Virus record (IMG/VR): IMGVR_UViG_3300037484_000235
Span: 160,001 to 224,000 of that record
Direction: 5' to 3' (one strand)
DNA length: 64,000 nt
Source: a virus
Taxonomy: Duplodnaviria > Caudoviricetes
Shown here: positions 8,034 through 56,027 of the stretch, one piece after another
Layout: every line of letters begins with the position of its first letter
How positions within the stretch are numbered: position 1 is the stretch's first letter
Program-made: the position numbers and the translations under genes
The notes under the pieces: model-generated
What the model was told of the DNA's origin: nothing
The model's database searches: none
What the model saw: the letters and a program-made list of their open reading frames with translations, nothing else

Positions 8034-8418
8034 GGGCTCGAAAGGTTTCGACAGGGAGGTGAAGAGAGAGGGTGCGCGCCTTGGTCGGTCGAAGGGCCAA
8101 GTAAAAAATCGACCTACGACAGCTGCCAACGATAACAGCTACGCTCTCACGGCAATCGCCGCGTGAGCCGTTCGCGGAGAGAGTTTCTCAGGTAGATCTC
8201 TTCGCGAGCGTAAAAGGAATCTGAGAGAACCTCGGGCCAGACCATCGAGGCTAAACATGGCGGTGACGGATAGACTCTGGGAAACCAAGAGCCTACCCGG
8301 TGGAAGGGCGCCAGGGACCGCAAGCCTACCGTAAGTGGCTTGGAATCCTGGAGACGCGCGTGGTGCCTGATCTTTAGTAATCGCTCTGGACGTGGTTTCA
8401 ATACCACCGAGTCCACCA
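8034..8418 (+). ncRNA. ssrA: tmRNA (transfer-messenger RNA)
   Basis: The 5' GGGCTCGAAAGGTTTCGAC pairs with the 3' CGAGTCC-ACCA as an acceptor stem, including a G3:U wobble as in tRNA-Ala. T-arm is GTGGT-TTCAAT-ACCAC. The internal tag frame 8125-8166 reads ANDNSYALTAIAA*. Length is 385 nt and CCA is encoded. Confidence 0.93.
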
Positions 8419-40850: not shown

Positions 40851-41167
40851 GGTAGTCTCCGCCGCCTCGTGCACGCCAGACTCGAACTGGGGGCCGTTGC
40901 CCACCTTGCTGGATGCCGTTACATCCGCCTCGGACACGAGACGGCAGAGTTCATTGGTGCCCCGTGGCTTGCGGCTGTGGAATCCACCGACGCTGGCGCC
41001 ATCTGTGCGGCGCTCTGCACGAGAGGCGATGCGCTTCCATGCGCGTCGAGCGCCTGCTACATGCGTGCTGTTGGAACCGGAGTTAGGGGGTCCGCCCTCC
41101 CACGTAGGTCCGTTGTCTTGGTGATGGCGACCATCACGGCGCATGTTGGTTCGTTGTGACACGGGGC

Positions 41168-41635
41168 TCAATCTGACTCTTCGGGCTCTTCTGTGTAGAT
41201 CAGCGCAGCGCCCGGGGGCATGGGCTGTACCTGAATCATGGACTTGCCCAGGTAGCTCATAAGAGAGTCATGGTAGTCACATGCGGTGCATCGAACTGTT
41301 CCAGAGTATGGCCCAAACAGCCTCATCATGGATCTCTCAAGAGCGCCTTTGCATCGTGGACAGCTGGATCCCTCGGGGGCAGGAATCCAAGAGATCTCGA
41401 AGAACCTTGTGACCTGAAGCGGTATGGGATTCTTCACAGCCTCAAGTAGGAGTCTGGCTTGCTCGAAGTCTTTATGTGGTTTCATTTGGCACGACCCACC
41501 GGTGTTTGTTCTGGTCTTACGCTCTTCCCTCAGAGCGTAGACCGCAAGGTGCAGAGAAAAGGGCGTGATACGGCCTGAGTAAGCAGCCCGCAGTACAACA
41601 GCTTCAAGATTGGAGAGAGGCTGGGATTGGTTCAT
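41168..41635 (-). CDS. Zinc-ribbon hypothetical protein
   Basis: CPRC...CTAC; lies directly behind a consensus promoter. Confidence 0.6.
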   Translation of the reverse strand: MNQSQPLSNLEAVVLRAAYSGRITPFSLHLAVYALREERKTRTNTGGSCQMKPHKDFEQARLLLEAVKNPIPLQVTRFFEISWIPAPEGSSCPRCKGALERSMMRLFGPYSGTVRCTACDYHDSLMSYLGKSMIQVQPMPPGAALIYTEEPEESD

Positions 41636-41642
41636 GAGCCGG

Positions 41643-41671
41643 ACCCTAGTGGACTCGGCTCACACGGTCAA
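41643..41671 (-). promoter_or_regulatory. Sigma70/SigA-type promoter, leaderless
   Basis: Minus strand TTGACC-N17-TAGGGT-N7-ATG(41635). Confidence 0.7.
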
Positions 41672-41678
41672 GAAAGCG

Positions 41679-42749
41679 TTATCGATTTGGATCGTAGGGT
41701 CTTCCGGATGGATCCGTGATGTAGAGGTCGTCATCCTCGGCATCTGTAATCCGGAATCCAGGATCTAACCCAAGGTCTTTTTCGACCGAAGCCTGCGTCT
41801 CAAGCATCTCCAATGCTTTGTTGATGGCGCGGGCAGCTGGAGGCATGCGGGAACCGCGCAGGGCGTACATGGACACCCTTCGGAGTAAGTTCGCGAAGGC
41901 GATGGCCTCATCCTCTGGGAAGCCAGAGTTCCGGCTTGCTACGACCAGTTCCTTGGCTGACTCAAGGATTTGGGTGGTGTAGAACGTCGTTCGCGAAGCG
42001 CGGCGTTGACCGTGAGGTGAACTGTGTTCGTCTAGTTCACGCAGGACTTCCCAGGGTCGCTTGGGTGTCACGCGTGGATCGTGTGCGTCAAGTGCCAAGG
42101 CCGCCTTGTAGAGAAGGCTGGCAGCCCCACGATTGCCGCCGGACTTGGCGTAGGCCGCACAGGTCAAGAGTACCTGGTGGAAGGCTTCGTCAATGTCTTC
42201 CGTCGAGCTGCGGGCCCCATGGTGCGCGTCCAGAAGGTCTTGAACGTTGGCCTTGAGCAGAAGCGCCTTCGACGCCTGATTTGCCCGCTTGGCCACGGAC
42301 GCCTTCTTGTCGTCCTTCTTGCCCTCTTCGACCTTCTTTTCGCAGTTGTCTCGCATCCCGCCCTCGGGAAGCTTCTCGCAACCGGCGGTCTTGTCAACAT
42401 CCTTGGCCTTCTTGTCGCAAACAGCGCAACGTCCAGAAGACACGTTTCCGAAGGCTCTCGCCTTTGAGACAGCGGACGGCTTGAACTTCTTGCCGCACAG
42501 GGCGACGTTGTTCACGACGTTGGATCCGTCCTCGAATACTGCGTTCTTGAAGGCGTGGGATTCTCCGTCACGTTGGTTGCCAGGACGCGCCCAGGCAACC
42601 TCGATTTTCTCCGGCGTCTCCCCGTGCATGACGGGTTCCCAGAATGGTGCTACCGCAGCTTCCTTGAGAAGGGGGAGCAAGTCAGCCCGGAGAGCCGGGT
42701 TCTGGTGGGCAAGGCGAATGAGGCGTGAGCGGAGGGCTTGGTCTGACAT
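41679..42749 (-). CDS. Leader-bearing putative head cargo protein 2 (multidomain)
   Basis: Starts MSDQALRSRLIRLAHQNPALRADLLPLLKEAA. Contains a Cys/His cluster and segments separated by KTAG, KKAS and RRAS. Confidence 0.75.
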   Translation of the reverse strand: MSDQALRSRLIRLAHQNPALRADLLPLLKEAAVAPFWEPVMHGETPEKIEVAWARPGNQRDGESHAFKNAVFEDGSNVVNNVALCGKKFKPSAVSKARAFGNVSSGRCAVCDKKAKDVDKTAGCEKLPEGGMRDNCEKKVEEGKKDDKKASVAKRANQASKALLLKANVQDLLDAHHGARSSTEDIDEAFHQVLLTCAAYAKSGGNRGAASLLYKAALALDAHDPRVTPKRPWEVLRELDEHSSPHGQRRASRTTFYTTQILESAKELVVASRNSGFPEDEAIAFANLLRRVSMYALRGSRMPPAARAINKALEMLETQASVEKDLGLDPGFRITDAEDDDLYITDPSGRPYDPNR

Positions 42750-42832
42750 ACCACCTTGGGCCTATCAAACGATTCACGGAATCGTATTTCATCGGTAGAG
42801 TCCCGGGCCAGCTACTGGCAGGAGACCCGATC

Positions 42833-43138
42833 ATGACGACAGAAAATACGACGAATGCGGATACCGAGGTCAAGGAAGTCAACAAGCTCTCCCCTGAGGA
42901 GGTTGCCCAGCTGACTCAGTTGCACCGTCAGGCGCAAGAAATTGTGCAACAGATCGGTCAGATTGAAGTCCGCAAGCACCGTATGATGGCTTCTCTCTCC
43001 GAGATTGAAGAGCATGCTCAGGGGATCATGAATGCTGCGGCCTCACGTCTGGGGATCGCTCCTGGCACCGCATGGCAAATGGCCCCGGACGGAACTGTGA
43101 TCGTTCTGCCGAAGACTCCAGCAGCTCAGACGCACTAA
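42833..43138 (+). CDS. Small coiled-coil protein
   Basis: Start ATG 42833 after AGGAG; Q/E-rich heptads. Confidence 0.6.
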   Translation: MTTENTTNADTEVKEVNKLSPEEVAQLTQLHRQAQEIVQQIGQIEVRKHRMMASLSEIEEHAQGIMNAAASRLGIAPGTAWQMAPDGTVIVLPKTPAAQTH

Positions 43139-43169
43139 CCGAGCTATCATCTAGAGAAGGGGACGCATC

Positions 43170-44558
43170 ATGTGGACCCCCACAACATACCCCTTACCAC
43201 CAATGAACGTCATGGTGGTCAGTCCCTTCGAGAGGGGTATGCTCGACGTGCGATGGGATGATCCCTCCCTTCTAGGGGGGAACTCACCATACAACGTCCT
43301 TGGGGTCAACGTCTACAGATCGGATTCGAGTGACAGAGGACCGTTCCGTAGGTTGAATTCCTATCCTGTGGGAGGGACGTTTTTCCGGGATTTCACGGAT
43401 GTGGCCCTCGTCTCTAACGAGATCATCTCTTGGGAGGCTGGGTGGCAATCTCGTGGGGATGCCCCAAACGTTCGACGATGGACTCTGCGGACACGGTACC
43501 CCATCTACAAGCCTCGGACTCAGGGAGTCGAGGCAAATGCACCCGCTGATGTGATCGTCACAATCAACGGCATACCCGCACGCATCCACGAGGTCTTTGG
43601 ATCCTCTTGTGAGATCACACTTGGGGACGCTCCGGATATCGATCCGAGACCTGATCGCTTTGCATTTGCCCCACTTCCTACAGGAAGTGGGGATGCTGTC
43701 GTCGTCACATACTACACTCTGAAGAATCTTGTCTCCCCAGGCGTGGACAAGAAGTCGTACTACCGAGTGACAACGGTTGCAGTGGATGCCACACAGCCTG
43801 GCGGCCTTGCTGAAACTCCGATGAACGTGTCCCAGCCAGCATCTGAGACACAGATTGAGCAGCTTGACTACATCTGGCGTGAGGCCATTAGGCGCAACCA
43901 CTGGATTCTTCAACAGGGTGGGGAACGCGTTAGCCTGTTCTGTCAGAAGGTGTCTGGGGTCCCTTGCGAGTGCCGCGCAGAGATAGAGAACCACGTCCGG
44001 GTGTACTCAAAACAGCACTCAAACCGGTGCAAAATCTGTTTCGGCACTGGATTCGTTGGGGGTTTTGAAGGGCCATACAACGTCATCATGGCACCGGATG
44101 ACGCTGAGAAGCGCATCTCTCAGTCACTGACTGGCCGTAGAAAGGAACACGCTTACGAGGTGTTCATGACGTTCACCCCCATTGTCTCCCAAAGGGACTT
44201 CGTGGTGAAGCAGAACAACGATCGCTACTCGATCGGCCCTGTGCGTCGCCCCACAAATCGTGGGAACGTGATGCAGCAGCATTTCACTCTGGGGTACTTG
44301 GATTCTGGTGACATTCGGTATTCGGTGCCGATCGATGGTTCTTTGGAGTCTCCAAATCTTCCATGGCCACAGACTCGCTACACATACAGTCCACCACGTG
44401 AGACGTATGATGCCCGTGAGGATGCCCCGTGGCCAGTCACGCCTGATGCAGCGCTGCCAATGGCAACCGATGTGGCACTTGTTCCGGCTCCTGTCCAGCA
44501 GAGATACCGAACGGGAACTGGGGCAAACAACACTGGCAATAAGCCAAATGATCCATAG
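43170..44558 (+). CDS. Putative neck/head-completion protein
   Basis: N-terminal fibronectin-like segment. The C-terminal part has GGERVSLF..CEC...CKICFGTGFVGGF, as in head-closure proteins of large myophages. Confidence 0.55.
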   Translation: MWTPTTYPLPPMNVMVVSPFERGMLDVRWDDPSLLGGNSPYNVLGVNVYRSDSSDRGPFRRLNSYPVGGTFFRDFTDVALVSNEIISWEAGWQSRGDAPNVRRWTLRTRYPIYKPRTQGVEANAPADVIVTINGIPARIHEVFGSSCEITLGDAPDIDPRPDRFAFAPLPTGSGDAVVVTYYTLKNLVSPGVDKKSYYRVTTVAVDATQPGGLAETPMNVSQPASETQIEQLDYIWREAIRRNHWILQQGGERVSLFCQKVSGVPCECRAEIENHVRVYSKQHSNRCKICFGTGFVGGFEGPYNVIMAPDDAEKRISQSLTGRRKEHAYEVFMTFTPIVSQRDFVVKQNNDRYSIGPVRRPTNRGNVMQQHFTLGYLDSGDIRYSVPIDGSLESPNLPWPQTRYTYSPPRETYDAREDAPWPVTPDAALPMATDVALVPAPVQQRYRTGTGANNTGNKPNDP

Positions 44559-44570
44559 TAGGGGGAACAC

Positions 44571-45125
44571 ATGCCAGATGATGATGAGATCGTACCAGGT
44601 CCAATAGAGAACAGGGTAATCCGTGCCGGCAAGCTCATGGGCGCTGTTACTGGCATCCTTGTGGCTGTTGCAGCTGTGGTGTCTGGCATTTGGCAGGTAG
44701 GCAGCATGGTGAGCGATCTGAAGGACACCAAGACAGATTTGGAGTCCCTCAAGAAGTCGTTCAACGACTATCAAATTGAGGCACGAAAAGAGAACGAGAT
44801 CCAGAAAGAGATTCTCGTCAATCTCAGGATTGCTGTTGCCTCAATACAAACTGTCAATGGCTATCAGACCTCGGGCCACTCAACTATGGCCTCCATGCCT
44901 CCCATTTCGGCCTCTCGTATCCGTCAGGTTCTACCAAGAACATTGGGACCACTAGACGACAATCCTGAGTTTGCGTCTCTGATTCGGTCATTGCCCCCAT
45001 TGCCCCCGGACCCCACCACATCTGCTGTTGGCAATATGGATTCAAGTGACGTAATTCAGCATGAGTCGGATACGGCAGATGTGGCATTGCAGAGAGCTGA
45101 GATCCTTCAGGGTAGTCTCCAGTAA
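44571..45125 (+). CDS. Single-pass membrane protein with coiled coil
   Basis: Hydrophobic LMGAVTGILVAVAAVVSGIWQVG followed by heptads; a holin- or spanin-like role is unproven. Confidence 0.55.
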   Translation: MPDDDEIVPGPIENRVIRAGKLMGAVTGILVAVAAVVSGIWQVGSMVSDLKDTKTDLESLKKSFNDYQIEARKENEIQKEILVNLRIAVASIQTVNGYQTSGHSTMASMPPISASRIRQVLPRTLGPLDDNPEFASLIRSLPPLPPDPTTSAVGNMDSSDVIQHESDTADVALQRAEILQGSLQ

Positions 45126-45712
45126 TGGCGGGACCACCAAAGCCACCTGTCCAGTTAAAATCCTCTGTCCAGGCTACAAACAAGAAGGCTGCCACTAAGC
45201 TGCACAGCGGCCCAAAGCGAGTCATCCGGAGCCGTTACGTCTCTCCTCTGGAACGACGTGTCGGAGCCGTGCTCGACAAGTCCGATCTTCAGTTTTTCGG
45301 GCGCTGCCTCATCAAGTACATCAAAGAGGAGGCAGCGAAGGATGCTGCGAAGACGCATCAGGTGCCTGTCACTGAGGAATTTTACAAGTCTTTCACTTAC
45401 CAGGTGAAAGACAACACCATTGAGGTGTCTTCAAGTTGGCCGTGGATCGACCTGATTACCTTCGGAACAAGTGGCCCATACCCCATGAAATGGCTCACTC
45501 AAGCCAAGGGCGTCTACAAGGTGCCGTTGCGTGGTGAACATGGTGAACTGCTCATCCGCTCGACACCTCTTACGACGGACAAGGCGTGGATCCACCCTGG
45601 TATCTCTCGACATACGTTCATCGAACGAGCGTTTCGTCGAGCGCGAGAGGATTGCGTCTCCAAGTTCCTCTCGAAGAACATTGGGAAGATCATGGGTGGG
45701 GTCCTCAAATGA
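45125..45712 (+). CDS. Putative neck/tail-completion protein
   Basis: Basic 195-aa ORF (WIHPGISRHTFIERAF) positioned between neck and tail genes. Confidence 0.5.
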   Translation: MAGPPKPPVQLKSSVQATNKKAATKLHSGPKRVIRSRYVSPLERRVGAVLDKSDLQFFGRCLIKYIKEEAAKDAAKTHQVPVTEEFYKSFTYQVKDNTIEVSSSWPWIDLITFGTSGPYPMKWLTQAKGVYKVPLRGEHGELLIRSTPLTTDKAWIHPGISRHTFIERAFRRAREDCVSKFLSKNIGKIMGGVLK

Positions 45713-46341
45713 ACGAAGTCGAGTTGACTTGTGTTGGGGACACAGCCCACATCCCTGATTTAGGATTGAAGATGGTCCGAGGATCCCAGTCTTTCATCAC
45801 CCTCACAGCTCTTGCCAACTCCCGCGATCTGGTTGAGGCTAGGAAATTCGGGCTTGTCACGGTGCGGGTGATCAAGGCTCAGGTAATCAAGAGGGGTTCA
45901 CCCACCGTGTCAGTCAAACACCCCAATAATCGCCAGACGATTTTTCTCCCAGCTTACCAACCGTCAACACCTGTGAATCCACCCCCCAACATTCCGGATC
46001 CACGGGACATACCCAATAACCAGATTGCCGAGTTGATCCGGGAGATTCGTGGTCTTCGGGGGGACATACAAAAACGCCCACAGGAAGTCCTGAGTGGGCA
46101 AATGGTAGGGGCCATCTCCGCAGCTATCCGAGATGCTCTACAGGGTCTCCAACTGGGTGCAATCTCTGGTTCTCAGGTGAGGGGGCCAATTGATCCTGAA
46201 GACATGTTCATTCCTAGTGGTATCGTTACAGGAGTGAAGGCAGAGATCACAACACTGAATGAGACATCTGAGAGTACCTCTGGCCTGGACGATGCTCACA
46301 GCGCCTTGAAGAAGGCTCGAAGAGATCGCCAGGAACCATGA
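45709..46341 (+). CDS. Hypothetical protein
   Basis: ATGA overlaps on both sides; Pro-rich linker. Confidence 0.6.
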   Translation: MNEVELTCVGDTAHIPDLGLKMVRGSQSFITLTALANSRDLVEARKFGLVTVRVIKAQVIKRGSPTVSVKHPNNRQTIFLPAYQPSTPVNPPPNIPDPRDIPNNQIAELIREIRGLRGDIQKRPQEVLSGQMVGAISAAIRDALQGLQLGAISGSQVRGPIDPEDMFIPSGIVTGVKAEITTLNETSESTSGLDDAHSALKKARRDRQEP

Positions 46342-47432
46342 CAGATATTGCCGTGACTACGCCTTTGGGCGTTGAGCAAACTGATATACTGACCCTGATG
46401 AAGGAGACGCCTGTGGCCAAGGACGAATCGACAAAGACTCAAGAATCCCGTGGTGTGGGGCTTGATTGCGGAACCATGAATCTAGTTTCTGCGCGCCGTA
46501 CCCCAAAGGGAATCGAAACCCGAAGGATGCGGGACGCCTTCCTAGATCTTCCGAGCGAGTCAAAGAAGATGCTCAAGCTCTCTGGGGTGTCCTATGTGGA
46601 CCGGGGAGATGAGATTCTCATCCTCGGAGATGCAGCTCTTGACATGGCCAATGTTTTTGGCAGGGAGGCTCGTCGCCCGCTTTCCGGTGGCCTTGTCTCC
46701 GCAACGGAGTCAGATTCCCTGGAGGTGCTCGGTCTGCTTGTGCAGAACGTCCTGGGGGCACCTAAAGAGAAGGGTGAGCACTGTTACTTCTCTGTCCCGG
46801 CGGCTCCGATTGATGTGGTAGGACGGGATATTGTCTACCACAAGGGAATCTTCGACAGAATCGTGTCCGAGTGTGGGTACACACCGCACTCCGGAAACGA
46901 GGCCATGGCCGTGATCTATGCGGAGTCCGCCAAGGATGGGTTCTCTGGGGTGGCGCTATCTTTCGGGAGTGGAATGTCCAATGTGGCGCTATCGGTCGGG
47001 ACGATTGAGGGACTCTCCTTTTCGGTTGGCCGTGGGGGCGACTGGATCGATTCTGGTGCGTCGAAATCTGTGGGGTCCACACAGGCTCGAATGTGTTCCA
47101 CCAAGGAGAAGGGCTTTGACCTCAATATCCCGGAAAATCGGGACCAAGAGGCACTGGCCTTCTACTACAAGAACCTGATCGAGTACGTTTTGGATCAGAT
47201 TGCTCTCCAGTTCAAGACGATCGAAGGGAAGTTCTCGCTTCCCAAGCCTATTCCAATCATCGTCTCTGGGGGCACGTCACTTGCTGGAGGGTTCCTGGAG
47301 TTCTTCACGAAGGTATTTGAGAAGAAGCGCAAGAAGTTCCCTATCAATGTGAGTGAGATACGGGCTGCAAGTGACCCACTCAACGCCGTCGCACATGGCC
47401 TACTGATTCAGGCACTCCAGGAGTACGAGTGA
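46338..47432 (+). CDS. Actin-fold ATPase (MreB/ParM/FtsA superfamily)
   Basis: All five actin/Hsp70 motifs are present in order: GLDCGTMN, NEAMAV, SFGSGMSNV, IVSGGTS and DPLNAVAHG. Confidence 0.85.
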   Translation: MTDIAVTTPLGVEQTDILTLMKETPVAKDESTKTQESRGVGLDCGTMNLVSARRTPKGIETRRMRDAFLDLPSESKKMLKLSGVSYVDRGDEILILGDAALDMANVFGREARRPLSGGLVSATESDSLEVLGLLVQNVLGAPKEKGEHCYFSVPAAPIDVVGRDIVYHKGIFDRIVSECGYTPHSGNEAMAVIYAESAKDGFSGVALSFGSGMSNVALSVGTIEGLSFSVGRGGDWIDSGASKSVGSTQARMCSTKEKGFDLNIPENRDQEALAFYYKNLIEYVLDQIALQFKTIEGKFSLPKPIPIIVSGGTSLAGGFLEFFTKVFEKKRKKFPINVSEIRAASDPLNAVAHGLLIQALQEYE

Positions 47433-48241
47433 TGGTACGCGTAATGCGCGAGGTGCATATGGCAGAAAGGGCCTGTGCGGAGCTTTCAAAGGTGTGTCAT
47501 CGATCCGGCGCCTCCGAACAGCCATGTTGGGGTCGAATAGAGCCACTCGCGGATCCTGATTGGAACGGTAGCAATGATGCCCTAAAGTTCGCTTGTAGGG
47601 CTCATCGGACTTCTCAGTACAAGGCAAAGTCTGGGATTGACCTGGATATGGACTACGCGGCGGCTCAGGCCTTGGGGATGGACCCCAGGATCGTGGGAGA
47701 TGAGTCCCACTCCTTTGCTCCAACCTTCTCTGGCAGAGAAGAGCTTGCACGAATGCAGGGTACCATGGAGGTCCCAGAAGAAATTCAAAATGTATTTGAC
47801 CTTCAAGAGGTGGTAGACGCCTCTTTAGCCCAACAGGAATGGGCCAGAAGGATGGTTGAGGGCAAAACGGGTCGGGTTGAGAACCTCTTTTATGTGCCAC
47901 GCGTCAAGATATCCACAGAGGCCGTAGAAAACCTGACTGCCAAGATTCTAGAGTACTTGGCACAGATTGAAGTACTGAAGCATAGGATCAATCAGCATCG
48001 ATGTGAGTTAGCTGGGTTCCCGCCAGAATTTGCTGTTGGCATGGGCGACCCTTGCCACAAGTACGAGCCTGAGCAGAACACACATCACTGTTTAGAGTCC
48101 GTCAACGGACCCGGTGACGTGACCACTATCTGCTGGTGTGAGAGTGCCACAACACGAACCAGGCCCATTGATGTTGAAGCCTATGTGGTGACTCCCGGTA
48201 GATTCCGGGTACGCGAAACTCAGGATCAGACGAAAGACTAA
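47429..48241 (+). CDS. Hypothetical protein
   Basis: 270-aa ORF overlapping the actin stop; several Cys/His clusters. Confidence 0.5.
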   Translation: MMVRVMREVHMAERACAELSKVCHRSGASEQPCWGRIEPLADPDWNGSNDALKFACRAHRTSQYKAKSGIDLDMDYAAAQALGMDPRIVGDESHSFAPTFSGREELARMQGTMEVPEEIQNVFDLQEVVDASLAQQEWARRMVEGKTGRVENLFYVPRVKISTEAVENLTAKILEYLAQIEVLKHRINQHRCELAGFPPEFAVGMGDPCHKYEPEQNTHHCLESVNGPGDVTTICWCESATTRTRPIDVEAYVVTPGRFRVRETQDQTKD

Positions 48242-48248
48242 TAGTTTC

Positions 48249-49370
48249 ATGTACTTCCACATGGCAGAGGCGACGCGCCGAAGACTCATCAAAGAGCTTC
48301 GAGCCTATTGGTCCTTGAACCCAAGGTACCAAGACCTCATTGACAACATCCAGGGGAAATACTCGTTCCAAGAGAGGCCCCAGTACGGGATCATTGTCAA
48401 GATGGGTTCCGCCTCAAAGGTCCAGTTCTCCGCTGACAATCTCATGGGGACGATTCAGAGTTACGTGACATTGGCTAGGATTCCAGGGTACTCGGGACTG
48501 TCTGTTGAGTGGGTTAGGGAGGATGCCTATGCCATCCAGGGCAATGGTGGGGTCTTCCCGTCGCAAGCTGGCGTCTATTACTGTGAAATGTCCTCTGCGG
48601 ATGAATTCTACGTAGACCCATTGCTCGACGTACGTGATGAGCGGGTCACGATGACTACCAATTCAGAGGGCATCCTTCAAGGTGTCCCATTCTCCGAAAG
48701 CTTGCGTCTCTTTGAGGTGCCTGGCGGCCGACTCCTTCAGCTCGGTACAGACTACTCAGTGGATGCAGACGGTGTTACAATCTACTTGGCAGTGCCGCTG
48801 GCCAATGGGCAGGCCCTCTCAGCGGACTACCGTGTAGCAGGGACAACGACTGGGCCATGGAAGGTAGAGGCACAGGCGGGGCTTCACAAGATCATCCCCG
48901 GAGTCGTGATGGTCTTTGGGCGGAACTATGTACAAGGTGATCGTTGGGCTATTCTCGTTTCTTCGATTCGGGAGCCTGCATACATGGAGTACGGCGGGAA
49001 GTGGGAGATTGGTGTAGACATCGACATCATAGCTAGGGACGTTAATTCCCAGGCAGAGATTGCAGATCAGACGGCGATGTTCCTGTGGGCCATCTTGCGA
49101 CCGAACGTCATCGATGAGGGGATTGATATCCAGGATGTGTCCATGGGCGGGGAGTCTGAAGAAATATACGACGAGAACGGGGACGACTACTTCTACAATG
49201 CGTCAATTTCCCTAACAATTCAGGCGGATTGGTTCCTTCATGTTCCGATCCTACCGAGAATTCTATCCTACCAGGAGGATATCAAGGGGCTTCCGAGGGA
49301 GCTGTCGCTCTCTCCGTTCAGAGACCCATTCTTCGCATTGAAGTCGGAACACTTCGAAAAGATCTTGTGA
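48249..49370 (+). CDS. Putative tail terminator/sheath stabiliser
   Basis: 373 aa with an acidic C-terminal domain (EEIYDENGDDYFYNASISLTIQADW); located upstream of the sheath. Confidence 0.5.
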   Translation: MYFHMAEATRRRLIKELRAYWSLNPRYQDLIDNIQGKYSFQERPQYGIIVKMGSASKVQFSADNLMGTIQSYVTLARIPGYSGLSVEWVREDAYAIQGNGGVFPSQAGVYYCEMSSADEFYVDPLLDVRDERVTMTTNSEGILQGVPFSESLRLFEVPGGRLLQLGTDYSVDADGVTIYLAVPLANGQALSADYRVAGTTTGPWKVEAQAGLHKIIPGVVMVFGRNYVQGDRWAILVSSIREPAYMEYGGKWEIGVDIDIIARDVNSQAEIADQTAMFLWAILRPNVIDEGIDIQDVSMGGESEEIYDENGDDYFYNASISLTIQADWFLHVPILPRILSYQEDIKGLPRELSLSPFRDPFFALKSEHFEKIL

Positions 49371-49415
49371 TCCGTTGGCCCCTCTATACCTATCCCTTGT
49401 TGAAGAGAGGCCACC

Positions 49416-49892
49416 ATTCCTGTTTTCAGATACCAGTGCGACTGCGGATTGAACTTCTCGACTCGTGTCGCTTCGGCAGCGAGTCCGGTGAAGTGCTCCT
49501 GCGGGTCATTGGCGAAACAAGATCTCCCCCGATCTTTTTCGGTGGGCACGTCTGTTCCTACGAATGGACTCTCTGCCCCATCAACAGGCCTATCGTCACA
49601 TGACTATGTGTTTGACAAGGTTGTGGGAGAAGATGCCAAGGGCAAGTGGGACAAGATTGCGGCCCGCCACAAGGACAAGGTTCGGCTTCTTGAGCAGACT
49701 GGGGCCACAGGATTCGATCTCACCAAGCAGCATGACGGTTCCTACGCCATCATGACCCCCCAGCAGCGGGCTGCCTCTGAACGGACACGGGCATTCCACT
49801 TCAAGATGGATGCTGCGGGTCCGGCTCAAGCCCGAAAGAAGCAGATTGAGGCAACAAGTTTGGTCCCTAAGGATCACAAAAGCCATGTCTGA
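49416..49892 (+). CDS. Second FmdB-family zinc-ribbon protein with apparent ATT start
   Basis: GAGAGG-N5-ATT CCT GTT TTC AGA TAC CAG TGC GAC TGC reads (M)PVFRYQCDC...CSCG. An in-frame TGA at 49401 precludes an upstream ATG. Confidence 0.65.
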   Translation: MPVFRYQCDCGLNFSTRVASAASPVKCSCGSLAKQDLPRSFSVGTSVPTNGLSAPSTGLSSHDYVFDKVVGEDAKGKWDKIAARHKDKVRLLEQTGATGFDLTKQHDGSYAIMTPQQRAASERTRAFHFKMDAAGPAQARKKQIEATSLVPKDHKSHV

Positions 49893-50574
49893 ACTTCGAA
49901 GTAAGCTCATTCGTTTGGCCAACTCTAACCCAGAGTTGCGATCCACATTGCTACCTTTGCTGAAGGAGGGCGCCGCCGAGAAGACCGGGTCCTCTGTCAC
50001 CTATGCGATGGCTGTGAGGGACGCTTCTCTGGAGTTGATTGGAGCGTCAAGAGGAAGTGATGTTACAGACGAGGGGCAGATGCTCATTCTGCTTCTTGCT
50101 GCATGCTCCACATTCGTCAAGAAGGGCAGGATTGGAAGCAATCAGACCGCTATCCTCATCAAAAGGGCAGCCGACTCGTTGTACAAGGAGATGTTCGGGG
50201 AGAGTCCTGATGCGGTGTCACCAGTTGTTGCCGCTCCGACCCCCAGGGATCTGTTCTTTGGTTCGGGCAAGCTAAGTGGGTATGCCCTAGAAGTCATCCG
50301 TGGGATGCAGATGTTGGATGGTGACATCCACACCAAAGGCAAAGTAAATCCCAATGGCTCGGTGGAGTTCATGCATGGTGGTGTCTACGGCACAGTTCTG
50401 GTTGAGATGGGATTGTCCAATGATGCCCGTGCGTGGGTATCTGTGTACACGACTGGGCGTCGGCCCGCTTCCATCATGTTTCCCTCAACCTTCGATGTGA
50501 AGAGCGTGGCTGGGTCAAAGTTTCCCAGGATGCTCCTGAACAAGCTCTCTGACCTGAGTGCTTGGGCTGAGTAA
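49885..50574 (+). CDS. Leader-bearing putative head cargo protein 3
   Basis: Starts MSELRSKLIRLANSNPELRSTLLPLLKEGAA. Confidence 0.75.
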   Translation: MSELRSKLIRLANSNPELRSTLLPLLKEGAAEKTGSSVTYAMAVRDASLELIGASRGSDVTDEGQMLILLLAACSTFVKKGRIGSNQTAILIKRAADSLYKEMFGESPDAVSPVVAAPTPRDLFFGSGKLSGYALEVIRGMQMLDGDIHTKGKVNPNGSVEFMHGGVYGTVLVEMGLSNDARAWVSVYTTGRRPASIMFPSTFDVKSVAGSKFPRMLLNKLSDLSAWAE

Positions 50575-50699
50575 GATTTCCCTCCCGGTGCCTTAGGGCC
50601 CCGTGGTCCACAAACATACCTAACATCCTGCGCTTTCATTTTCTCTCCTTTATTTAGGAGAGGTTGATTCACATCAGTTCTCTCAGGAGCGCGCGAACC

Positions 50700-53600
50700 A
50701 TGCCAAGTCTTCTCCGTGGCGGATACACTCCCCCAGGTGTTTACACCCAGACCACTTTCGGAGTCCCACCGACCCCGACTCCGATTCCAGCTCGTATTCC
50801 CGTGTTCGTCGGGACGGGCACTGAGATCCTCTCTCGGTCGAGTCTCCCTGTCGTGCGTGGCAGTTCCAGCACCATTGACCAACAGGTCGTGGACGAGGAT
50901 GAGGCTGGTCGTGGCGTAGTTAGCGTCACCTCAGGTGGCCTTGTCACTCTTGGGGACTTCGATGGCCTGCTCACGAAGTTCCAGGTCCGCAACCTTCCCA
51001 TCGTCTCTGGCGATGGGACTGGCACCGTTGCGGTCGATACCAGCGCAGTCTCGTGCAAGATCAACGGATTCCCCGTTGTGGTTCTTGGACTTGACGCAGC
51101 CGAGGGCATCGTCGAGCTGTCGGTAGCACCAGTGTCTACGGACGTGGTCCTCTGCACTTACTTCTTCGACCGCACAGACACTCTGACGACGGATGACGTG
51201 TCGGATCAGGTCACTGCTGAGGCGGCGATCATCGATGGCCTTGCGGGACAGAGCTTCGCGTTCGCACTTGCCGCGAACGACGTTTTCTCCCTCTCGGTAG
51301 ATGGATTGGCGTTCGTGAACATCACGATGCCCTCGTCCGCCCCATCGGTGAGCGGCGCAGTGGTAGCAGCAACCATCAACGGCACCGCAGGAATTGGCTC
51401 TCTCGTCGCCACGACCTACGTCAACAACCTTGCTCAGACTTGCATCCGGCTTACGGCCGACAAGTCCATCACCATTGGAACGGGCACGGCGAATACAACC
51501 CTTGGGTTCACGCCTGGTGCAACGACCTCTCGCAATCGTGTGTTCTACACGTTCCAGGGTCCGATCGTCGATGGTTTCGGCGGCGGTACCACAACGACGG
51601 ACCCTTCGTTGGTTGTTGTCCTTGTGGACAGCGTCCAGGTCATCCCAACAGCGGTCAATGGGTCGTCCCGGTCGATCACCTTGCCCTACGCTCCGGCAGT
51701 GGGCTCTACGGTTACGGTCCGCTACTACTTTAACACCTGGCAGGACACGTTCGATTACCTTGCCAACATCGGTGTGACGGAGATCACACGCGCAGCCCTC
51801 ACCCCTGACGGAAGCGTTGCGGGCACATACGTCCAGGGTGTGTCATACGTTCTCAAGGACGACGTGATCGTGTGGGGCACAGCGGCCCTCGTTTCCTCTG
51901 ACGTGCATACAGAGGGTGGGACGACTCTAGGCACCTCGCAAATCCAAGCGATGTTGGTAGACAACCAGGTCTACCTTGCCCCCTGCGCAACGACCGTGGA
52001 CAGCACAGGCCCAGTCTCGGTTGCAAGTCGTACGGTCTTCCAGCTTCCATACCAGCCCACGACGGGTAATGGACGGGGTAATCCCCTGGGTTCGACGCTG
52101 TACGCGTCTGTCGCCAACGGGCGGATGGATCTCCCAACGAATCGCCCCGACCTCATCACAGCCTACTGGGGCTTCGGCGTTCAGGATGCAGTGGATCGTG
52201 GCGCGGTTGCGGTCCTCAAGGTGGACAGCGAGACTTCGCAGATCACACTCGGTTCGAGTGTGCCTGAAGGTGCAAGCGTCTACGCCTCGTTCTACTACAA
52301 CACGCTTGTGGACATGGCGAACATCGGTTCGAGCCACGCATACACACTAACGTGTGTGACGCCTGGACCTGGCGGAATCGGAACGTATTCCATCGCTGAT
52401 GGTGAGGGAGTCCTGCTTTTCGGGGCGAGCCTTACAGCCAAGGGAAGCGACCTCACGACCGTAGACGTGATGTTCCCTTCGGGCTCCGAGTTCTTCCCAG
52501 ACGCGCATGTCTCGGGCGGGGCGCCTGTCGAGGAGACTGTCACAGTCCAGTTCGCTACGTCGGACGTGACACCTGCTCGGTTCACGAACCTCGGACCTGG
52601 CCCGTACTACATGATCGACAACACCTCGGATCGTCTCCGGGTGACGTTCGATGCGGCGGCACAGCAGACGGGTCTTGCGGCTGGTATGGACCTCTCCGCC
52701 CCAACGCTGGGCACACGCGCCGGTGCATTCGCCTCTCTTCTGGGTGAAGAGATTGCGTACACAGCGGCCTCCGGTGAAACCACCTACGACCTCACCTCCG
52801 GTGTGGATGATGCCCTCGATCTCATCGTAGACGGTGTGCCCCTGACCGTAGCAGTCGGTACTGCCCCAGGTACAACGGCTGCGGGCTTTGTTACGGCCAT
52901 CAACGCAGCGGCCGTCGCTGCGGGCAATGAGCCCTACTACGACACCGCGGGTACGTTCACGAGCTTCATTGTCACGGTGAACGAGTACGACCAGCTTCGT
53001 CTTCACTACACGGGTGGCACCAACGGTGCGTCCGGTGTTGAGACGATCACCATCACCCCTGGTACCTACGCATCTCTCGGTGCGCTTGTTACCGAGATCA
53101 ATGCGCAGCTTGCGCTGATCAACGGTCTGTCCAGCACCGCTCTGTTCGGTTGGGTGACGGCTTCGGCTCTCTCTTCCGGCAAGATCCGATTCACTCTCGA
53201 AATCGGAAAGGGTATGGATACCCTGACCTTCGGTGGTATCCCAATCGCGGGTGAGACTGTTACGATCAATGCCAAGATCTATACGTTCCGAGCGGTCATC
53301 AACGGAGCATCTGTAGACGGTGATGTCCTCATCGGAACGGCGAGCGGTTCGCTCGACAACCTGATTGCAGCCATCAATCTCGGTGCAGGCTCAGGCGTCA
53401 CCTACGCAGCGGCAATGACTCTTCACCCCACGGTGTCTGCGGTTGCGGGCGCAGGCGTCACGATGATCGCATACGCCAAGGCAGTTGGAACTGCGGGCAA
53501 CGCAATCACCGATGCAACCAACGTTACACTTGGTGCATGGACGAACGCAGCTCCCGCTGGATTCTTTGCGGGTGGCGATGACACGGGTTACCTGGAGTTC

Positions 53601-56027
53601 ATCGCAAACGCCACACCAGCTCGGGACTTCGCGATCATCGCGGGTATTGACACTGGCACGGCAATCAGCCTCAACCAGACCAAGATCTACAATGGTCCAA
53701 TCGCTCGCCGCTTCACTGTGGCTACGACAGCGGGCCGCTTGCCCTACGACCGGATCATCCTCCGCAATCGTCTCTTCCCAGGTGGGGCTTCGCTGTCTTA
53801 CGTACCTACCCTTGCACAGACTGGAATCACCCTTCAGGGTGGGACCGGTGCAACCAAGGCCGGGCTTCTCAATGGGGAGACGGCTGAGGCTGTGTTCGGG
53901 GCAAACGTCAAGAATCCTACCATTGTCGCCCTCACGGGATGGGCTGGCGGACAGGTAGCAACGGCTACCTACGGTGACGCACGGGACGGCCAGGCAAATG
54001 TCACCTTCTACGATGGGACGGACCCTGCCAATCCTGCCAACAACCTCATGACTTTCACCGCCGGTGGAAGTCTCGTGACGGTGACCTTCACGGCTTCGGC
54101 CTTGGGTACGGCTACGGCACTAGGCCCCGTCACTGTCGCGGGCTCTGTGCTTGGTCAGATCAACGCGGCCATCGTGGCTGCAAGCCTCACAGCGGTCGTC
54201 TCTGTCCAACAGGAGGGTGCGGCCATCCGCCTTGTTGGCGGCGGCGTCGGCCCCGCAGCAACCCTGGTCATCGGGGCAGGAAGCGCGAACGACACACTCG
54301 GATTTGTCGAGGACGACTCGGCAGCTCCGGTTCCAGTCTCCACCCGCCAGCTTGCTTCGGCACTCATGGGTGCCAGCCAGTCGAGCGCAAACTTCACTGT
54401 CGCGATGCTCAGCTACTCGGCACCGGACGCAGCGTACTTCGCAGGTCGAGCCCTCGCCGGAATCAAGGTGGACTCGACGGGCAACGTCTACCTCTACCTC
54501 CAGAGCCTGACCCTGGGCACTGCGTCGAGCATCGACTTCGGAGACGCAACCTCGAACAACGCCCTGGTGACAGGGACCTTGCTCCTCATCACGTCGGCGG
54601 ACGGATCGTCTGGCGAGGCAGCCATCAACGGCTACTTCGTGACCAGCTCGAATCCCGGGCTGGGCTCGGGTTCGGCCGATACCTCGGTGTTCAACTCGGG
54701 TACGGGCCAAGACGGTGTGGTTGGACAGACGTATGTCGATGACGTGTCTGGCTTGACCTTCACCATTCTGCCTCGCTCGGGTGGCATTGCCTACCCAGTT
54801 GGTGTGAATGCCACGCTCAACTTCCGTGTGAGCAAGACGTTCACGACGGATGGCAACATCCCCACTCTCGCAATCCCCGGAGTCGAACTCACGGTCACGA
54901 ACACATCGGGTGTGGTCGCGCTGGACTCGGCCTTCGTGGAGACCTTCAAGAAGACGGGAGACGAGCCTACCAATGGGCAGATCTACTACGTCAGCTACAA
55001 CTACGCGAAGCAGGACTTCACCCCAAAGTTCTTCTCTCGCCTCTCGGAAGTCGTCACTGAGTACGGGCCTGTCAGCCCTGACAACCCGCTCTCTCTGGCA
55101 GCCCACATCGCCTTCCTAGGCGGTTCGTCTGTCATCGCTACCTATCAGGTGCTCAAGACGACTGGGTCGTCTCAGGCGAGCGAGCAGGCGTACTTGGATG
55201 CGCTTGTAGCTCTTGAGGGCAGCTCACTCCCAGGGAACATCATCCCAACAGTGCTGGTCCTTCTGACTCCAGCCACAGCAAACCTAGCGAAGCAGACAGC
55301 CATCCACTGCGACGTGCAGAGCAGCATCCGCTACCGTGCGGAGCGTACCGCGGTCTTCGGTTTCGCTTCGGGCACCCAGCCTTCCCAGGTTGGCACAATC
55401 TCCCAGGCAACAGGATCGACACGTGTTCGGTTTGTCTACCCAGACATCTGGACAATCACGATCACCGATGTACTTGGAACCTCCAAGGCATATCTCGTGG
55501 ATGGTCGCTACATGGCAGCCTCCGTGGCAGCCTCCACGACCGCACCCTCTATCGACTCTGCAACTCCATGGACTGGTCGGCTTCTCCCAGGCTGGACTGC
55601 CAGTGGGCGGTCTCTGGACGCTGTGGAGGCAAATCAGGTCGCGTCCAAGGGCGTGACCGTGATCGAAGAGAAGTTGCCGAACATGCGGATTCGGCATGGC
55701 CTCACGTCAGACATGACCAATGTCCTGACGAAGATCCCAACGGTCATTCAGATCGCTGATGACATGCAGCGTCGTGCACGCGCAGTGCTCGACCAGTTCG
55801 TGGGTGTCAAGTTCCTCCCACAGATCCTCGGACAGATCGAGGGACAGCTGAGCGAGATGTTCAAGCGCGCCGTGCAGGAACAGATCATCACGAGCTTCAC
55901 GGGTATCAGCGTGGTTCTCGACCCTGAGGATCCCACTGCCACTCTGGTAGAAGCCTTCTACCTCCCCGTCTTCCCTCTTTTGTATCTCCAGCTAAACTTC
56001 AGGGTGTCTTCACAGTCGAACATTTGA
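50700..56027 (+). CDS. Tail sheath protein with large insertions (about 1775 aa)
   Basis: N-terminal YTPPGVYT and a C-terminal sheath domain (VTVIEE...IRHGLT...IADDMQRRAR..LDQFVG...EAFYLPVFPLLYLQLNF). Start ATG 50700 after AGGAG. Confidence 0.9.
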   Translation: MPSLLRGGYTPPGVYTQTTFGVPPTPTPIPARIPVFVGTGTEILSRSSLPVVRGSSSTIDQQVVDEDEAGRGVVSVTSGGLVTLGDFDGLLTKFQVRNLPIVSGDGTGTVAVDTSAVSCKINGFPVVVLGLDAAEGIVELSVAPVSTDVVLCTYFFDRTDTLTTDDVSDQVTAEAAIIDGLAGQSFAFALAANDVFSLSVDGLAFVNITMPSSAPSVSGAVVAATINGTAGIGSLVATTYVNNLAQTCIRLTADKSITIGTGTANTTLGFTPGATTSRNRVFYTFQGPIVDGFGGGTTTTDPSLVVVLVDSVQVIPTAVNGSSRSITLPYAPAVGSTVTVRYYFNTWQDTFDYLANIGVTEITRAALTPDGSVAGTYVQGVSYVLKDDVIVWGTAALVSSDVHTEGGTTLGTSQIQAMLVDNQVYLAPCATTVDSTGPVSVASRTVFQLPYQPTTGNGRGNPLGSTLYASVANGRMDLPTNRPDLITAYWGFGVQDAVDRGAVAVLKVDSETSQITLGSSVPEGASVYASFYYNTLVDMANIGSSHAYTLTCVTPGPGGIGTYSIADGEGVLLFGASLTAKGSDLTTVDVMFPSGSEFFPDAHVSGGAPVEETVTVQFATSDVTPARFTNLGPGPYYMIDNTSDRLRVTFDAAAQQTGLAAGMDLSAPTLGTRAGAFASLLGEEIAYTAASGETTYDLTSGVDDALDLIVDGVPLTVAVGTAPGTTAAGFVTAINAAAVAAGNEPYYDTAGTFTSFIVTVNEYDQLRLHYTGGTNGASGVETITITPGTYASLGALVTEINAQLALINGLSSTALFGWVTASALSSGKIRFTLEIGKGMDTLTFGGIPIAGETVTINAKIYTFRAVINGASVDGDVLIGTASGSLDNLIAAINLGAGSGVTYAAAMTLHPTVSAVAGAGVTMIAYAKAVGTAGNAITDATNVTLGAWTNAAPAGFFAGGDDTGYLEFIANATPARDFAIIAGIDTGTAISLNQTKIYNGPIARRFTVATTAGRLPYDRIILRNRLFPGGASLSYVPTLAQTGITLQGGTGATKAGLLNGETAEAVFGANVKNPTIVALTGWAGGQVATATYGDARDGQANVTFYDGTDPANPANNLMTFTAGGSLVTVTFTASALGTATALGPVTVAGSVLGQINAAIVAASLTAVVSVQQEGAAIRLVGGGVGPAATLVIGAGSANDTLGFVEDDSAAPVPVSTRQLASALMGASQSSANFTVAMLSYSAPDAAYFAGRALAGIKVDSTGNVYLYLQSLTLGTASSIDFGDATSNNALVTGTLLLITSADGSSGEAAINGYFVTSSNPGLGSGSADTSVFNSGTGQDGVVGQTYVDDVSGLTFTILPRSGGIAYPVGVNATLNFRVSKTFTTDGNIPTLAIPGVELTVTNTSGVVALDSAFVETFKKTGDEPTNGQIYYVSYNYAKQDFTPKFFSRLSEVVTEYGPVSPDNPLSLAAHIAFLGGSSVIATYQVLKTTGSSQASEQAYLDALVALEGSSLPGNIIPTVLVLLTPATANLAKQTAIHCDVQSSIRYRAERTAVFGFASGTQPSQVGTISQATGSTRVRFVYPDIWTITITDVLGTSKAYLVDGRYMAASVAASTTAPSIDSATPWTGRLLPGWTASGRSLDAVEANQVASKGVTVIEEKLPNMRIRHGLTSDMTNVLTKIPTVIQIADDMQRRARAVLDQFVGVKFLPQILGQIEGQLSEMFKRAVQEQIITSFTGISVVLDPEDPTATLVEAFYLPVFPLLYLQLNFRVSSQSNI

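What the first reader, a model, noticed from the sequence alone, without database searches (positions are those of the whole stretch)
46338..47432. Actin-fold ATPase embedded in the neck/tail morphogenesis operon
Seen in sequence: all five actin-superfamily motifs are present. The phosphate-2 motif has Ser where Asp is usual (SFGSG). The gene is translationally coupled to 45709-46341 and 47429. Established knowledge: a few phage actin-like proteins (for example AlpC) and PhuZ tubulins position phage DNA or capsids. Inference: location among late virion genes, with no ParR or centromere partner visible, suggests a role in capsid transport or assembly organisation. The coupled upstream ORF could be its adaptor.
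Basis: partly seen in the sequence, partly recalled or inferred. Interest (0 to 1): 0.6.

Follow-up and report, generated by a model that had tools for sequence, protein, structure and literature searches.

The report
Huge-phage volactin-type actin with adaptor
A giant uncultured bacteriophage carries its own well-conserved actin-like gene, always paired with a small partner gene, so it probably builds actin filaments inside its host; I found no paper describing this, although the scan has flagged the same thing in other phage genomes.

Summary
The ORF at 46338-47432 is real. It encodes a 364-aa actin-fold protein that matches Pfam Volactin (PF25216) at 228 bits against a cut-off of 35. The window is part of a 252-kb fragment of an uncultured huge phage.

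The AlphaFold model is confident (pLDDT 91.5). Its best structural matches are filament-forming actins (MamK Z 29.4, BeeR 27.7, MreB 26.8), not sugar kinases or Hsp70.

The Ser in phosphate-2 is a subfamily signature, not a defect. The motif S-[FC]-G-x-G-M-x-N holds in 238 of 241 homologues. Inteins have inserted at three sites inside this loop in relatives.

The actin is the best-conserved gene of a syntenic block that holds down to about 50% identity. The block is a 462-aa Zn-Cys protein, a 195-aa protein, a 210-aa protein, the actin, a 373-aa protein and a 1787-aa sheath-like protein. More distant phages keep only the actin and a small upstream partner.

That partner has a variable N-terminal domain, disordered linkers and a basic C-terminal helix, like a ParR-type adaptor. 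The N-terminal domain is soluble here and membrane-spanning in other clades.

Best reading: a phage-built actin filament and adaptor module, probably acting during virion assembly. Polymerisation, cargo and timing are all inferred.

The scan has found the same thing on other DNA. Verdict: new member of a known kind, moderate interest.

The parts
46338..47432 (+). Volactin-family actin gene (364 aa). Motif positions in window coordinates: phosphate-1 46458-46487, connect-1 46893-46922, phosphate-2 46950-46991 (Ser208 at 46959-46961), adenosine 47253-47294, connect-2 47370-47405.
   Evidence: Pfam PF25216 E 2.6e-67. AF2 pLDDT 91.5, pTM 0.87. MamK Z 29.4, BeeR 27.7, MreB 26.8. More than 1800 homologues.
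45709..46341 (+). Candidate adaptor (210 aa). It has a confident small N-terminal alpha/beta domain (residues 1-56), a disordered Pro-rich linker, helices at 103-122 and 131-146, an invariant FIP motif (residues 167-169) and a basic C-terminal helix (residues 194-207, ...SALKKARRDR...). Its stop overlaps the actin start (ATGA).
   Evidence: Alignment A3. AF2 model. Co-conserved with the actin by tblastn or HMM in L002-L014, L017, L019-L021 and L025. The basic C-tail is enriched in upstream partners family-wide.
45125..45712 (+). Co-conserved 195-aa protein of unknown function, overlapping the adaptor gene start by 4 nt.
   Evidence: 28-72% identity in 16 loci, always directly upstream of the adaptor gene. 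No family match.
43170..44558 (+). Conserved 462-aa protein with an invariant Cys cluster (C268, C287, C290). It is the first gene of the syntenic block.
   Evidence: 42-83% identity in 14 loci. No PDB, Pfam or NCBIfam match. hhalign to T4 gp13 is not significant.
47429..48241 (+). Variable Cys-rich 270-aa ORF coupled to the actin stop (GTGA). It is not part of the conserved module.
   Evidence: Found only in L002-L004, at 39% identity.
48249..49370 (+). Conserved 373-aa protein. Tail-terminator-like is a weak lead only.
   Evidence: 32-79% identity in 19 loci. ESM Atlas feature hits to SP10_terminator and Gp37 clusters at 0.86 and 0.80. No Pfam or PDB support.
50664..56027 (+). Probable giant tail sheath protein (1787 aa) with inserted domains.
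   Evidence: Phage_sheath_1C matched in 4 of 9 orthologues, best E 1.1e-4. hhalign to T4 gp18 is not significant (E 0.086), though it aligns a PYDRI-LRNR / PFDRINVR motif.

Best explanation
The gene encodes a phage-made actin of the Volactin family, most like MamK and MreB. It probably binds ATP and polymerises into filaments in the infected cell.

It works as a two-gene module with the product of the upstream gene (45709-46341). That protein looks like a tethering adaptor. A short basic C-terminal helix on a long disordered linker would dock onto the actin, as the ParR tail docks onto ParM. A clade-specific N-terminal domain would bind the cargo or anchor.

In this huge-phage clade the adaptor domain is soluble, and the module sits inside a tightly packed block of virion-type genes next to the probable tail sheath. 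The most likely job is therefore to organise or move virion parts (capsids, tails or DNA-filled heads) late in infection.

Shown: the fold, family membership, conservation of the active-site motifs, synteny and the adaptor architecture.

Inferred: polymerisation, adaptor docking, the cargo and late expression.
For: Family and fold:
- PF25216 at 228 bits against a cut-off of 35.
- A confident AF2 model.
- Best structural matches are filament protomers: MamK 5ljv Z 29.4, BeeR 8r2n Z 27.7, MreB Z 26.8.
- A profile search of PDB sequences ranks MamK 2e-12, BeeR 3e-8, MreB 9e-8 and FtsA 2e-5, far above EutJ 2e-3 and DnaK 0.27.
- The family's founding member, VolA, forms dynamic filaments in vivo (PMC10869688).

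Selection on the nucleotide site:
- D43, G45, T46, E188, S208, G210, G212, N215, D238, K256, E257, G311 and G312 are each kept in 97% or more of 241 homologues.
- Canonical inteins (CL...HN|C/S) sit at three different sites inside the phosphate-2 loop in relatives.

Conservation and synteny:
- The actin is 50-86% identical across loci where its neighbours are 27-83% identical. It is the best-conserved gene of the block in every locus.
- Synteny holds in L002-L021, L023 and LR745208.

Adaptor:
- N-domain pLDDT is 92-97, the linkers are disordered and there is a C-terminal helix.
- In 31 non-redundant upstream partners, 77% have 4 or more K/R in the last 15 residues, against 23% of background ORFs (p = 5e-11).
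- The enrichment survives excluding the last 4 residues and comparing with other closely spaced gene pairs (p = 5e-6).
- N-terminal domains differ by clade: soluble here, one TM helix in L033-L037, and a multi-TM protein on Halogeometricum plasmid pHBOR01.

Other:
- Complete relatives LR745208 (485 kb) and LR756511 (595 kb) have one volactin gene and no tubulin match.
Against: - No experiment or expression data.
- Ser208 and Asn215 replace the two acidic phosphate-2 residues found in MamK, MreB and VolA, so ATP hydrolysis may be slow or absent.
- The adaptor N-domain has no clear fold match (best Z 4.9, to ribosomal L27-like proteins and YqbF), so the cargo is unknown.
- Docking of the C-terminal helix on the actin was not modelled, because no co-folding tool was available.
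- The virion identity of the flanking genes rests on weak evidence.
- In distant phages the actin lies next to NUDIX, glycosyltransferase, primase or exonuclease genes.
Confidence: 0.6

Rival explanations
1. A ParMRC-like DNA-positioning system. The adaptor N-domain binds phage DNA, and the filaments position or segregate replicating or pseudolysogenic phage genomes, as AlpC-AlpA does for prophage CGP3.
For: Relatives at about 38-40% identity carry N-terminal HU domains (P0227, 37.7 bits against a cut-off of 22.4) or ParB-HTH domains (P0162, 27.8 bits against 22.6) fused to the actin. The adaptor architecture resembles ParR. AlpC provides a precedent (PMC4446434, listed).
Against: The DNA-binding fusions form a separate clade from all the viral sequences (FastTree). 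No iteron or centromere-like repeats lie near the module. The adaptor N-domain shows no recognised DNA-binding fold. The gene lies in a virion-type block, not near replication genes.
Confidence: 0.17
2. A non-polymerising ASKHA ATPase or chaperone (Hsp70- or EutJ-like) that helps fold or assemble the giant sheath or other tail parts.
For: The gene sits among morphogenesis-type genes. The altered phosphate-2 (Ser/Asn) could mean nucleotide binding without fast hydrolysis. EutJ and DnaK appear as weak hits.
Against: Filament-forming actins outrank EutJ and DnaK by many orders of magnitude in E-value, and the best match is the MamK filament protomer. There is no substrate-binding domain. The founding family member polymerises. 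In distant phages the actin is kept without the tail genes.
Confidence: 0.1
3. A host-takeover factor that co-polymerises with or displaces host MreB, reshaping or enlarging the cell for huge virions.
For: The fold is MreB-like and carries the MreB-type RRPLxxG motif. VolA acts in cell-shape change.
Against: Identity to MreB is only 15-18%. There is no match to the MreB_Mbl Pfam model at E 0.001 or better. A dedicated phage adaptor suggests an autonomous system.
Confidence: 0.07

Closest known systems
Volactin (VolA, HVO_2015) of Haloferax volcanii; Pfam PF25216 (Schiller et al. 2024, PMC10869688)
   Same: Same Pfam family (228 bits). Same MreB-like actin fold and the same F-[ST]-G...F-G-[AS]-G phosphate-2 framework. 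Haloarchaeal megaplasmid homologues are 34-37% identical to the phage protein and also follow a partner gene that ends in a short helix.
   Different: VolA keeps Asp in phosphate-2 (VDFGAGT), whereas the phage subfamily has SFGSGM-N. VolA is cellular, probably essential and acts in rod-to-disk shape change. This protein is viral, sits among virion-type genes and has a soluble adaptor.
MamK (magnetosome-positioning actin; PDB 5ljv, 5jyg)
   Same: It is the closest solved relative by both structure (Z 29.4, rmsd 2.9 over 294 residues) and sequence profile (E 2e-12). Both would position a cargo through a separate adaptor (MamJ for MamK).
   Different: Only 18% identity. MamK has DIGAGTTD in phosphate-2. 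There is no magnetosome context.
ParM-ParR-parC and AlpC-AlpA (plasmid and prophage actin partition systems)
   Same: A two-gene actin and adaptor cassette. The adaptor has an N-terminal cargo domain and a flexible C-terminal tail. AlpC shows that phage-encoded actins exist.
   Different: ParM is not among the sequence-profile matches to solved structures. No centromere repeats were found. The adaptor gene is upstream, and its N-domain is not a recognised DNA binder.
PhuZ tubulin spindle of nucleus-forming jumbo phages
   Same: A phage-encoded cytoskeletal polymer in very large phages, proposed to organise DNA and capsids.
   Different: A different superfamily: tubulin versus actin. The complete relatives examined have no tubulin match. 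No function has been shown for the actin.

Membership tests
Volactin family (Pfam PF25216) | Score above the curated gathering cut-off over the full-length model | tested here: met
   228 bits against a cut-off of 35; residues 40-359 cover model positions 3-321 of 321. Confirmed on the genome.
Volactin family (Pfam PF25216) | Actin (ASKHA) fold with the five nucleotide-binding and hinge motifs | tested here: met
   AF2 pLDDT 91.5. Z 25-29 to actin-family filaments over residues 35-364. Motifs conserved in 241 homologues.
Volactin family (Pfam PF25216) | Forms dynamic filaments in vivo, as shown for VolA | not testable with these tools
   Needs microscopy or biochemistry.
MreB (Pfam PF06723) | Match to the MreB_Mbl model | tested here: not met
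   No match at E 0.001 or better in the 252-kb record. Only structural similarity (Z 26.8, 15-18% identity).
ParMRC-type partition system | ParM-type actin | tested here: inconclusive
   ParM is absent from the profile hits against solved-structure sequences at E 1 or better. Absence from a list does not exclude distant kinship.
ParMRC-type partition system | Adjacent adaptor with a flexible C-terminal tail that binds the actin | tested here: inconclusive
   The architecture fits, and basic C-tails are enriched in upstream partners. Binding was not modelled.
ParMRC-type partition system | Centromere-like repeat array next to the operon | tested here: not met
   Only short two-copy repeats in 41000-51000.
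Non-polymerising ASKHA enzymes and chaperones (sugar kinases, Hsp70, EutJ) | Closest relatives by sequence profile and structure belong to these groups | tested here: not met
   MamK, BeeR, MreB and FtsA rank first. EutJ scores 2e-3 and DnaK 0.27. The top 50 structural rows are all filament-type actins, MreB or FtsA.

The most novel reading that the evidence does not exclude
A large, widespread group of huge phages lacks PhuZ tubulin and instead runs an actin-based cytoskeleton. One conserved volactin-type filament carries exchangeable adaptors: soluble, membrane-anchored or DNA-binding. In this clade the system would be wired into the virion assembly line, moving or aligning capsids and giant tails. 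That would make it an actin counterpart of the PhuZ spindle in bacteria.
Probability: 0.35. Interest if true: 0.75.

Novelty: new member of a known kind. Interest (0 to 1): 0.5.

Why it matters
Phage cell biology currently rests on one cytoskeletal paradigm, the PhuZ tubulin spindle of nucleus-forming jumbo phages. This would add a second.

- **Breadth:** the actin family is strongly conserved and very widespread. There are 1069 clusters at 50% identity, and many sit on 100-470 kb contigs.
- **Modular partner:** it is paired with an adaptor whose N-terminal domain changes between clades.
- **Alternative to tubulin:** complete relatives of 485 and 595 kb have no tubulin gene. This suggests that many uncultured huge phages organise the host cytoplasm with actin instead.
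- **Testable now:** the question needs no cultured host. The two proteins can be expressed, polymerised and imaged.
- **Active-site chemistry:** the conserved Ser/Asn phosphate-2 variant offers a natural experiment on actin ATPase chemistry.

Tried and rejected
**Family and structure searches with no result**
- PHROGs and NCBIfam gave nothing for the actin or its neighbours.
- A single-sequence PDB search gave no significant hit.
- Profile searches of PDB sequences with the 373-aa, 462-aa and sheath families gave nothing.
- hhalign of those families against T4 gp15, gp13 and gp18 was not significant.
- Pfam on the orthologues of 48249 did not support the tail-terminator lead.

**Adaptor tests that were negative or inconclusive**
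- The adaptor HMM found no match in the N-terminal extensions of fused homologues, so there is no gene-fusion link between the two proteins.
- hhalign of the adaptor family against the L022 upstream ORF was weak (E 0.043). The shared FIPS motif and tail are therefore only suggestive.
- A fold search with the adaptor N-domain stayed below Z 5.

**Signals searched for and not found**
- Promoter and terminator scans found no more sites than in shuffled sequence.
- No centromere-like repeats were found.

- The search for related loci on genome contigs with alignment A4 failed because no stretch was conserved enough.
- The maximum-likelihood tree did not finish in time, so a FastTree tree was used instead.

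**Idea rejected**
- Ser208 as a sign of a decayed or pseudo-enzyme site. It is kept in 238 of 241 homologues, together with Glu188.

Full report
**1. Observation**

The ORF 46338-47432 (+) is open and gives a 364-aa protein, P0001. Its ATG overlaps the stop of the upstream ORF (ATGA at 46338-46341), and an AGGAA element lies 5 nt upstream. Its TGA overlaps the GTG of the next ORF at 47429.

All five actin-superfamily motifs are present:
- Phosphate-1, GLDCGTMNLV (residues 41-50).
- Connect-1, GNEAMAVIYA (186-195).
- Phosphate-2, VALSFGSGMSNVAL (205-218).
- Adenosine, PIIVSGGTSLAGGF (306-319).
- Connect-2, SDPLNAVAHGLL (345-356).

**2. Source of the window**

The window is bases 160001-224000 of a 252.5-kb IMG/VR virus record, which CheckV rates 57% complete.
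- It carries a major capsid gene at 2035-2913 (phrog_2522, E 4e-50).
- It carries a tmRNA at 8034-8418.
- It has ORFs of 3764 and 1787 aa.
- The only matches in a library of 50,697 phage records are two uncultured huge phages: LR745208 (485 kb, 69% identity) and LR756511 (595 kb, 31% identity).

**3. Identity of the protein**

P0001 matches Pfam Volactin (PF25216) over the whole model, E 2.6e-67, 228 bits against a cut-off of 35. It has no PHROG or NCBIfam match and no match to the MreB_Mbl model.

An AlphaFold2 model built on a 40-sequence alignment is confident (pLDDT 91.5, pTM 0.87). Only residues 1-35 are disordered.
- Foldseek and VIA-align rank filament-forming actins first: the MamK filament protomer (Z 29.4, rmsd 2.9 over 294 residues), BeeR (27.7) and MreB (26.8). 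F-actin, crenactin and FtsA follow.
- A sequence profile against solved structures gives the same order: MamK 2e-12, BeeR 3e-8, MreB 9e-8 and FtsA 2e-5, well ahead of EutJ 2e-3 and DnaK 0.27. ParM is not listed.

**4. The Ser in phosphate-2**

The founding family member, Haloferax VolA, has VDFGAGT (supplementary figure 8b of PMC10869688). MamK and MreB also have Asp.

In 241 full-length homologues the position is Ser in 238. Asn215 is kept in 238, Glu188 in 237 and Asp43 in 236. S-[FC]-G-x-G-M-x-N is therefore a conserved subfamily signature, not decay.

Many relatives of about 700 aa are split exactly here. P0122 carries an intein splicing domain (E 2.7e-15) plus an HNH domain. Canonical CL...HN|C/S inteins sit after S208, after G210 and after M213. 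Inteins typically home into functionally critical sites, so this supports a working nucleotide site. The hydrolysis rate may still differ from that of MamK or MreB.

**5. Distribution**

- A word-index search found more than 1800 homologues. The top 120 are 68-90% identical and usually about 335 aa long. Many lie on contigs of 100-470 kb.
- An exhaustive HMMER search of 50%-identity cluster representatives found 1069 clusters at E 0.001 or better and 323 at 1e-30 or better.
- A quick FastTree tree puts the window protein in a well-supported clade made of viral contigs plus one unlabelled representative (95-97% local support). It lies apart from a 36-member clade that holds the N-terminal fusion proteins, and apart from the haloarchaeal megaplasmid homologues.

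**6. Synteny**

In 22 IMG/VR loci and in LR745208 one block recurs: the 462-aa Zn-Cys protein, the 195-aa protein, the 210-aa protein, the actin, the 373-aa protein and the 1787-aa protein.
- The actin is the best-conserved member in every locus. For example, in L013 it is 70% identical while its neighbours are 27-49%.
- The ORF at 47429 occurs only in the three closest relatives.
- The block persists down to about 50% actin identity (L017, L019). There an HNH-like ORF has been inserted between the adaptor gene and the actin gene.
- L022 (41% identity) and LR756511 (31%) share only the actin with this genome. Their neighbouring genes encode NUDIX and glycosyltransferase in one case, and a lysin-like protein, a primase and an exonuclease in the other.

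The virion-gene context is thus a trait of this clade, not of the family.

**7. Are the neighbours neck and tail genes?**

- The 1787-aa protein is probably a giant sheath. Phage_sheath_1C matched in 4 of 9 orthologues, best E 1.1e-4.
- The 373-aa protein has only a weak language-model lead to tail terminators, and Pfam does not confirm it.
- Comparisons with T4 gp13, gp15 and gp18 were not significant.
- Genes from 43170 to 48241 are separated by 12 nt or less, or overlap. Promoter- and terminator-like sites are no more frequent than in shuffled sequence. This fits co-transcription but does not prove it.

**8. The partner gene**

The 45709 product has five parts:
- a confidently folded N-terminal domain of about 56 aa (pLDDT 92-97);
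- a disordered Pro-rich linker;
- two helices;
- an invariant FIP motif;
- a C-terminal helix ending in a basic tail.

I examined 52 upstream ORFs from all the loci, which fall into 31 clusters at 50% identity and 16 families unrelated by BLASTP.
- 77% have 4 or more K/R in the last 15 residues, against 23% of background ORFs (p = 5e-11).
- The signal survives when the last four residues are left out, since these could be encoded by the ribosome-binding site, and when the comparison set is other closely spaced gene pairs (p = 5e-6).
- Tails such as ALKKARRDR, ALKAAKKKR, DKLKKLRGK and LAKLKNLLKLK recur.

The N-terminal parts differ between clades. The domain is soluble in this clade. It is a single TM helix in L033-L037. 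On Halogeometricum plasmid pHBOR01 the partner is a multi-TM protein with an acidic linker and a terminal helix.

This is how adaptors such as ParR are built: a constant docking peptide and a variable cargo domain. The fold search with the N-domain was inconclusive (best Z 4.9, to ribosomal L27-like proteins and YqbF). Docking on the actin could not be modelled.

**9. Clues from fusions**

In a different clade, relatives are fused to other domains:
- HU (P0227);
- ParB-HTH (P0162, P0157, P0154);
- a Wzz/BY-kinase module (P0164);
- a second volactin copy (P0127).

Some family members are therefore tied directly to DNA. This keeps a DNA-positioning role alive as the main rival reading. No centromere-like repeats lie near the window's module.

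**10. Other cytoskeleton genes**

The 252-kb fragment, LR745208 and LR756511 contain no tubulin match. Each of the five related virus records checked has exactly one volactin gene.

**11. Literature**

Within the searchable library I found no description of actin-family proteins in huge phages.
- 'Actin' as a protein is absent from Al-Shayeb et al. 2020 and from two jumbo-phage reviews.
- None of the listed papers that mention volactin concerns phages, judging by title and abstract.
- Known phage actins such as AlpC belong to other families.

The scan itself has found the same gene in other huge-phage genomes. Independent follow-ups there reached similar readings.

**12. Verdict**

This is a real and well-conserved phage actin of the Volactin family, with a dedicated adaptor-like partner. 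In this clade it sits inside a virion-type gene block. Filament formation, adaptor docking, cargo and timing are inferred. It is a new member of a known kind (actin and adaptor cytomotive modules, phage cytoskeletal proteins) and is of moderate interest.

Noticed in passing
L020:9983-12196; proteins P0122, P0124, P0125, P0130, P0138, P0149, P0168, P0245, P0248: Homologous actin genes are interrupted by inteins at three distinct sites within the 7-residue phosphate-2 loop: after S208, after G210 and after M213. They have canonical CL...HN ends and a +1 Cys or Ser. P0122 also carries an HNH domain.
   Followed up: partly
proteins P0227, P0162, P0157, P0154, P0164, P0127: Volactin domains occur fused to other modules: HU, ParB-HTH, a Wzz/GNVR/ParA-type BY-kinase module, or a second volactin copy. 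All sit in a clade separate from the viral sequences.
   Followed up: partly
window 8034-8418 (+): A phage-encoded tmRNA (Rfam RF00023, 94 bits; tag peptide ANDNSYALTAIAA).
   Followed up: partly
L017:5526-6194, L018:9328-9996, L019:9304-9987: A 222-227-aa ORF with an HNH-like Cys/His C-terminus (…CCWCH…) is inserted between the adaptor gene and the actin gene in the 50-53% identity relatives.
   Followed up: no
L062:3791-6179 (Halogeometricum borinquense pHBOR01); also pNG700 of Haloarcula marismortui and a Natrinema plasmid: Haloarchaeal megaplasmids carry volactin homologues that are 34-37% identical to the phage protein and have the phage-type SFGAGM motif. VolA has VDFGAGT instead. On pHBOR01, the one checked, the gene follows a multi-TM protein with an acidic linker and a short C-terminal helix.
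   Followed up: partly
window 47429-48241 (+): A Cys-rich 270-aa ORF is coupled to the actin stop codon. It is present only in the three closest relatives (39% identity), so it looks like a recent accessory insertion.
   Followed up: no
window 50664-56027 (+): The probable tail sheath is 1787 aa. All 9 orthologues show weak matches to DUF2460, and 7 of 9 to DUF4815, in what look like inserted domains.
   Followed up: partly
window 25077-36371 (+): A single 3764-aa ORF with no annotation attempted here.
   Followed up: no
LR745208.1 and LR756511.1 (whole records): Neither complete huge-phage genome that carries a volactin gene has any match to the tubulin family PF00091.
   Followed up: yes
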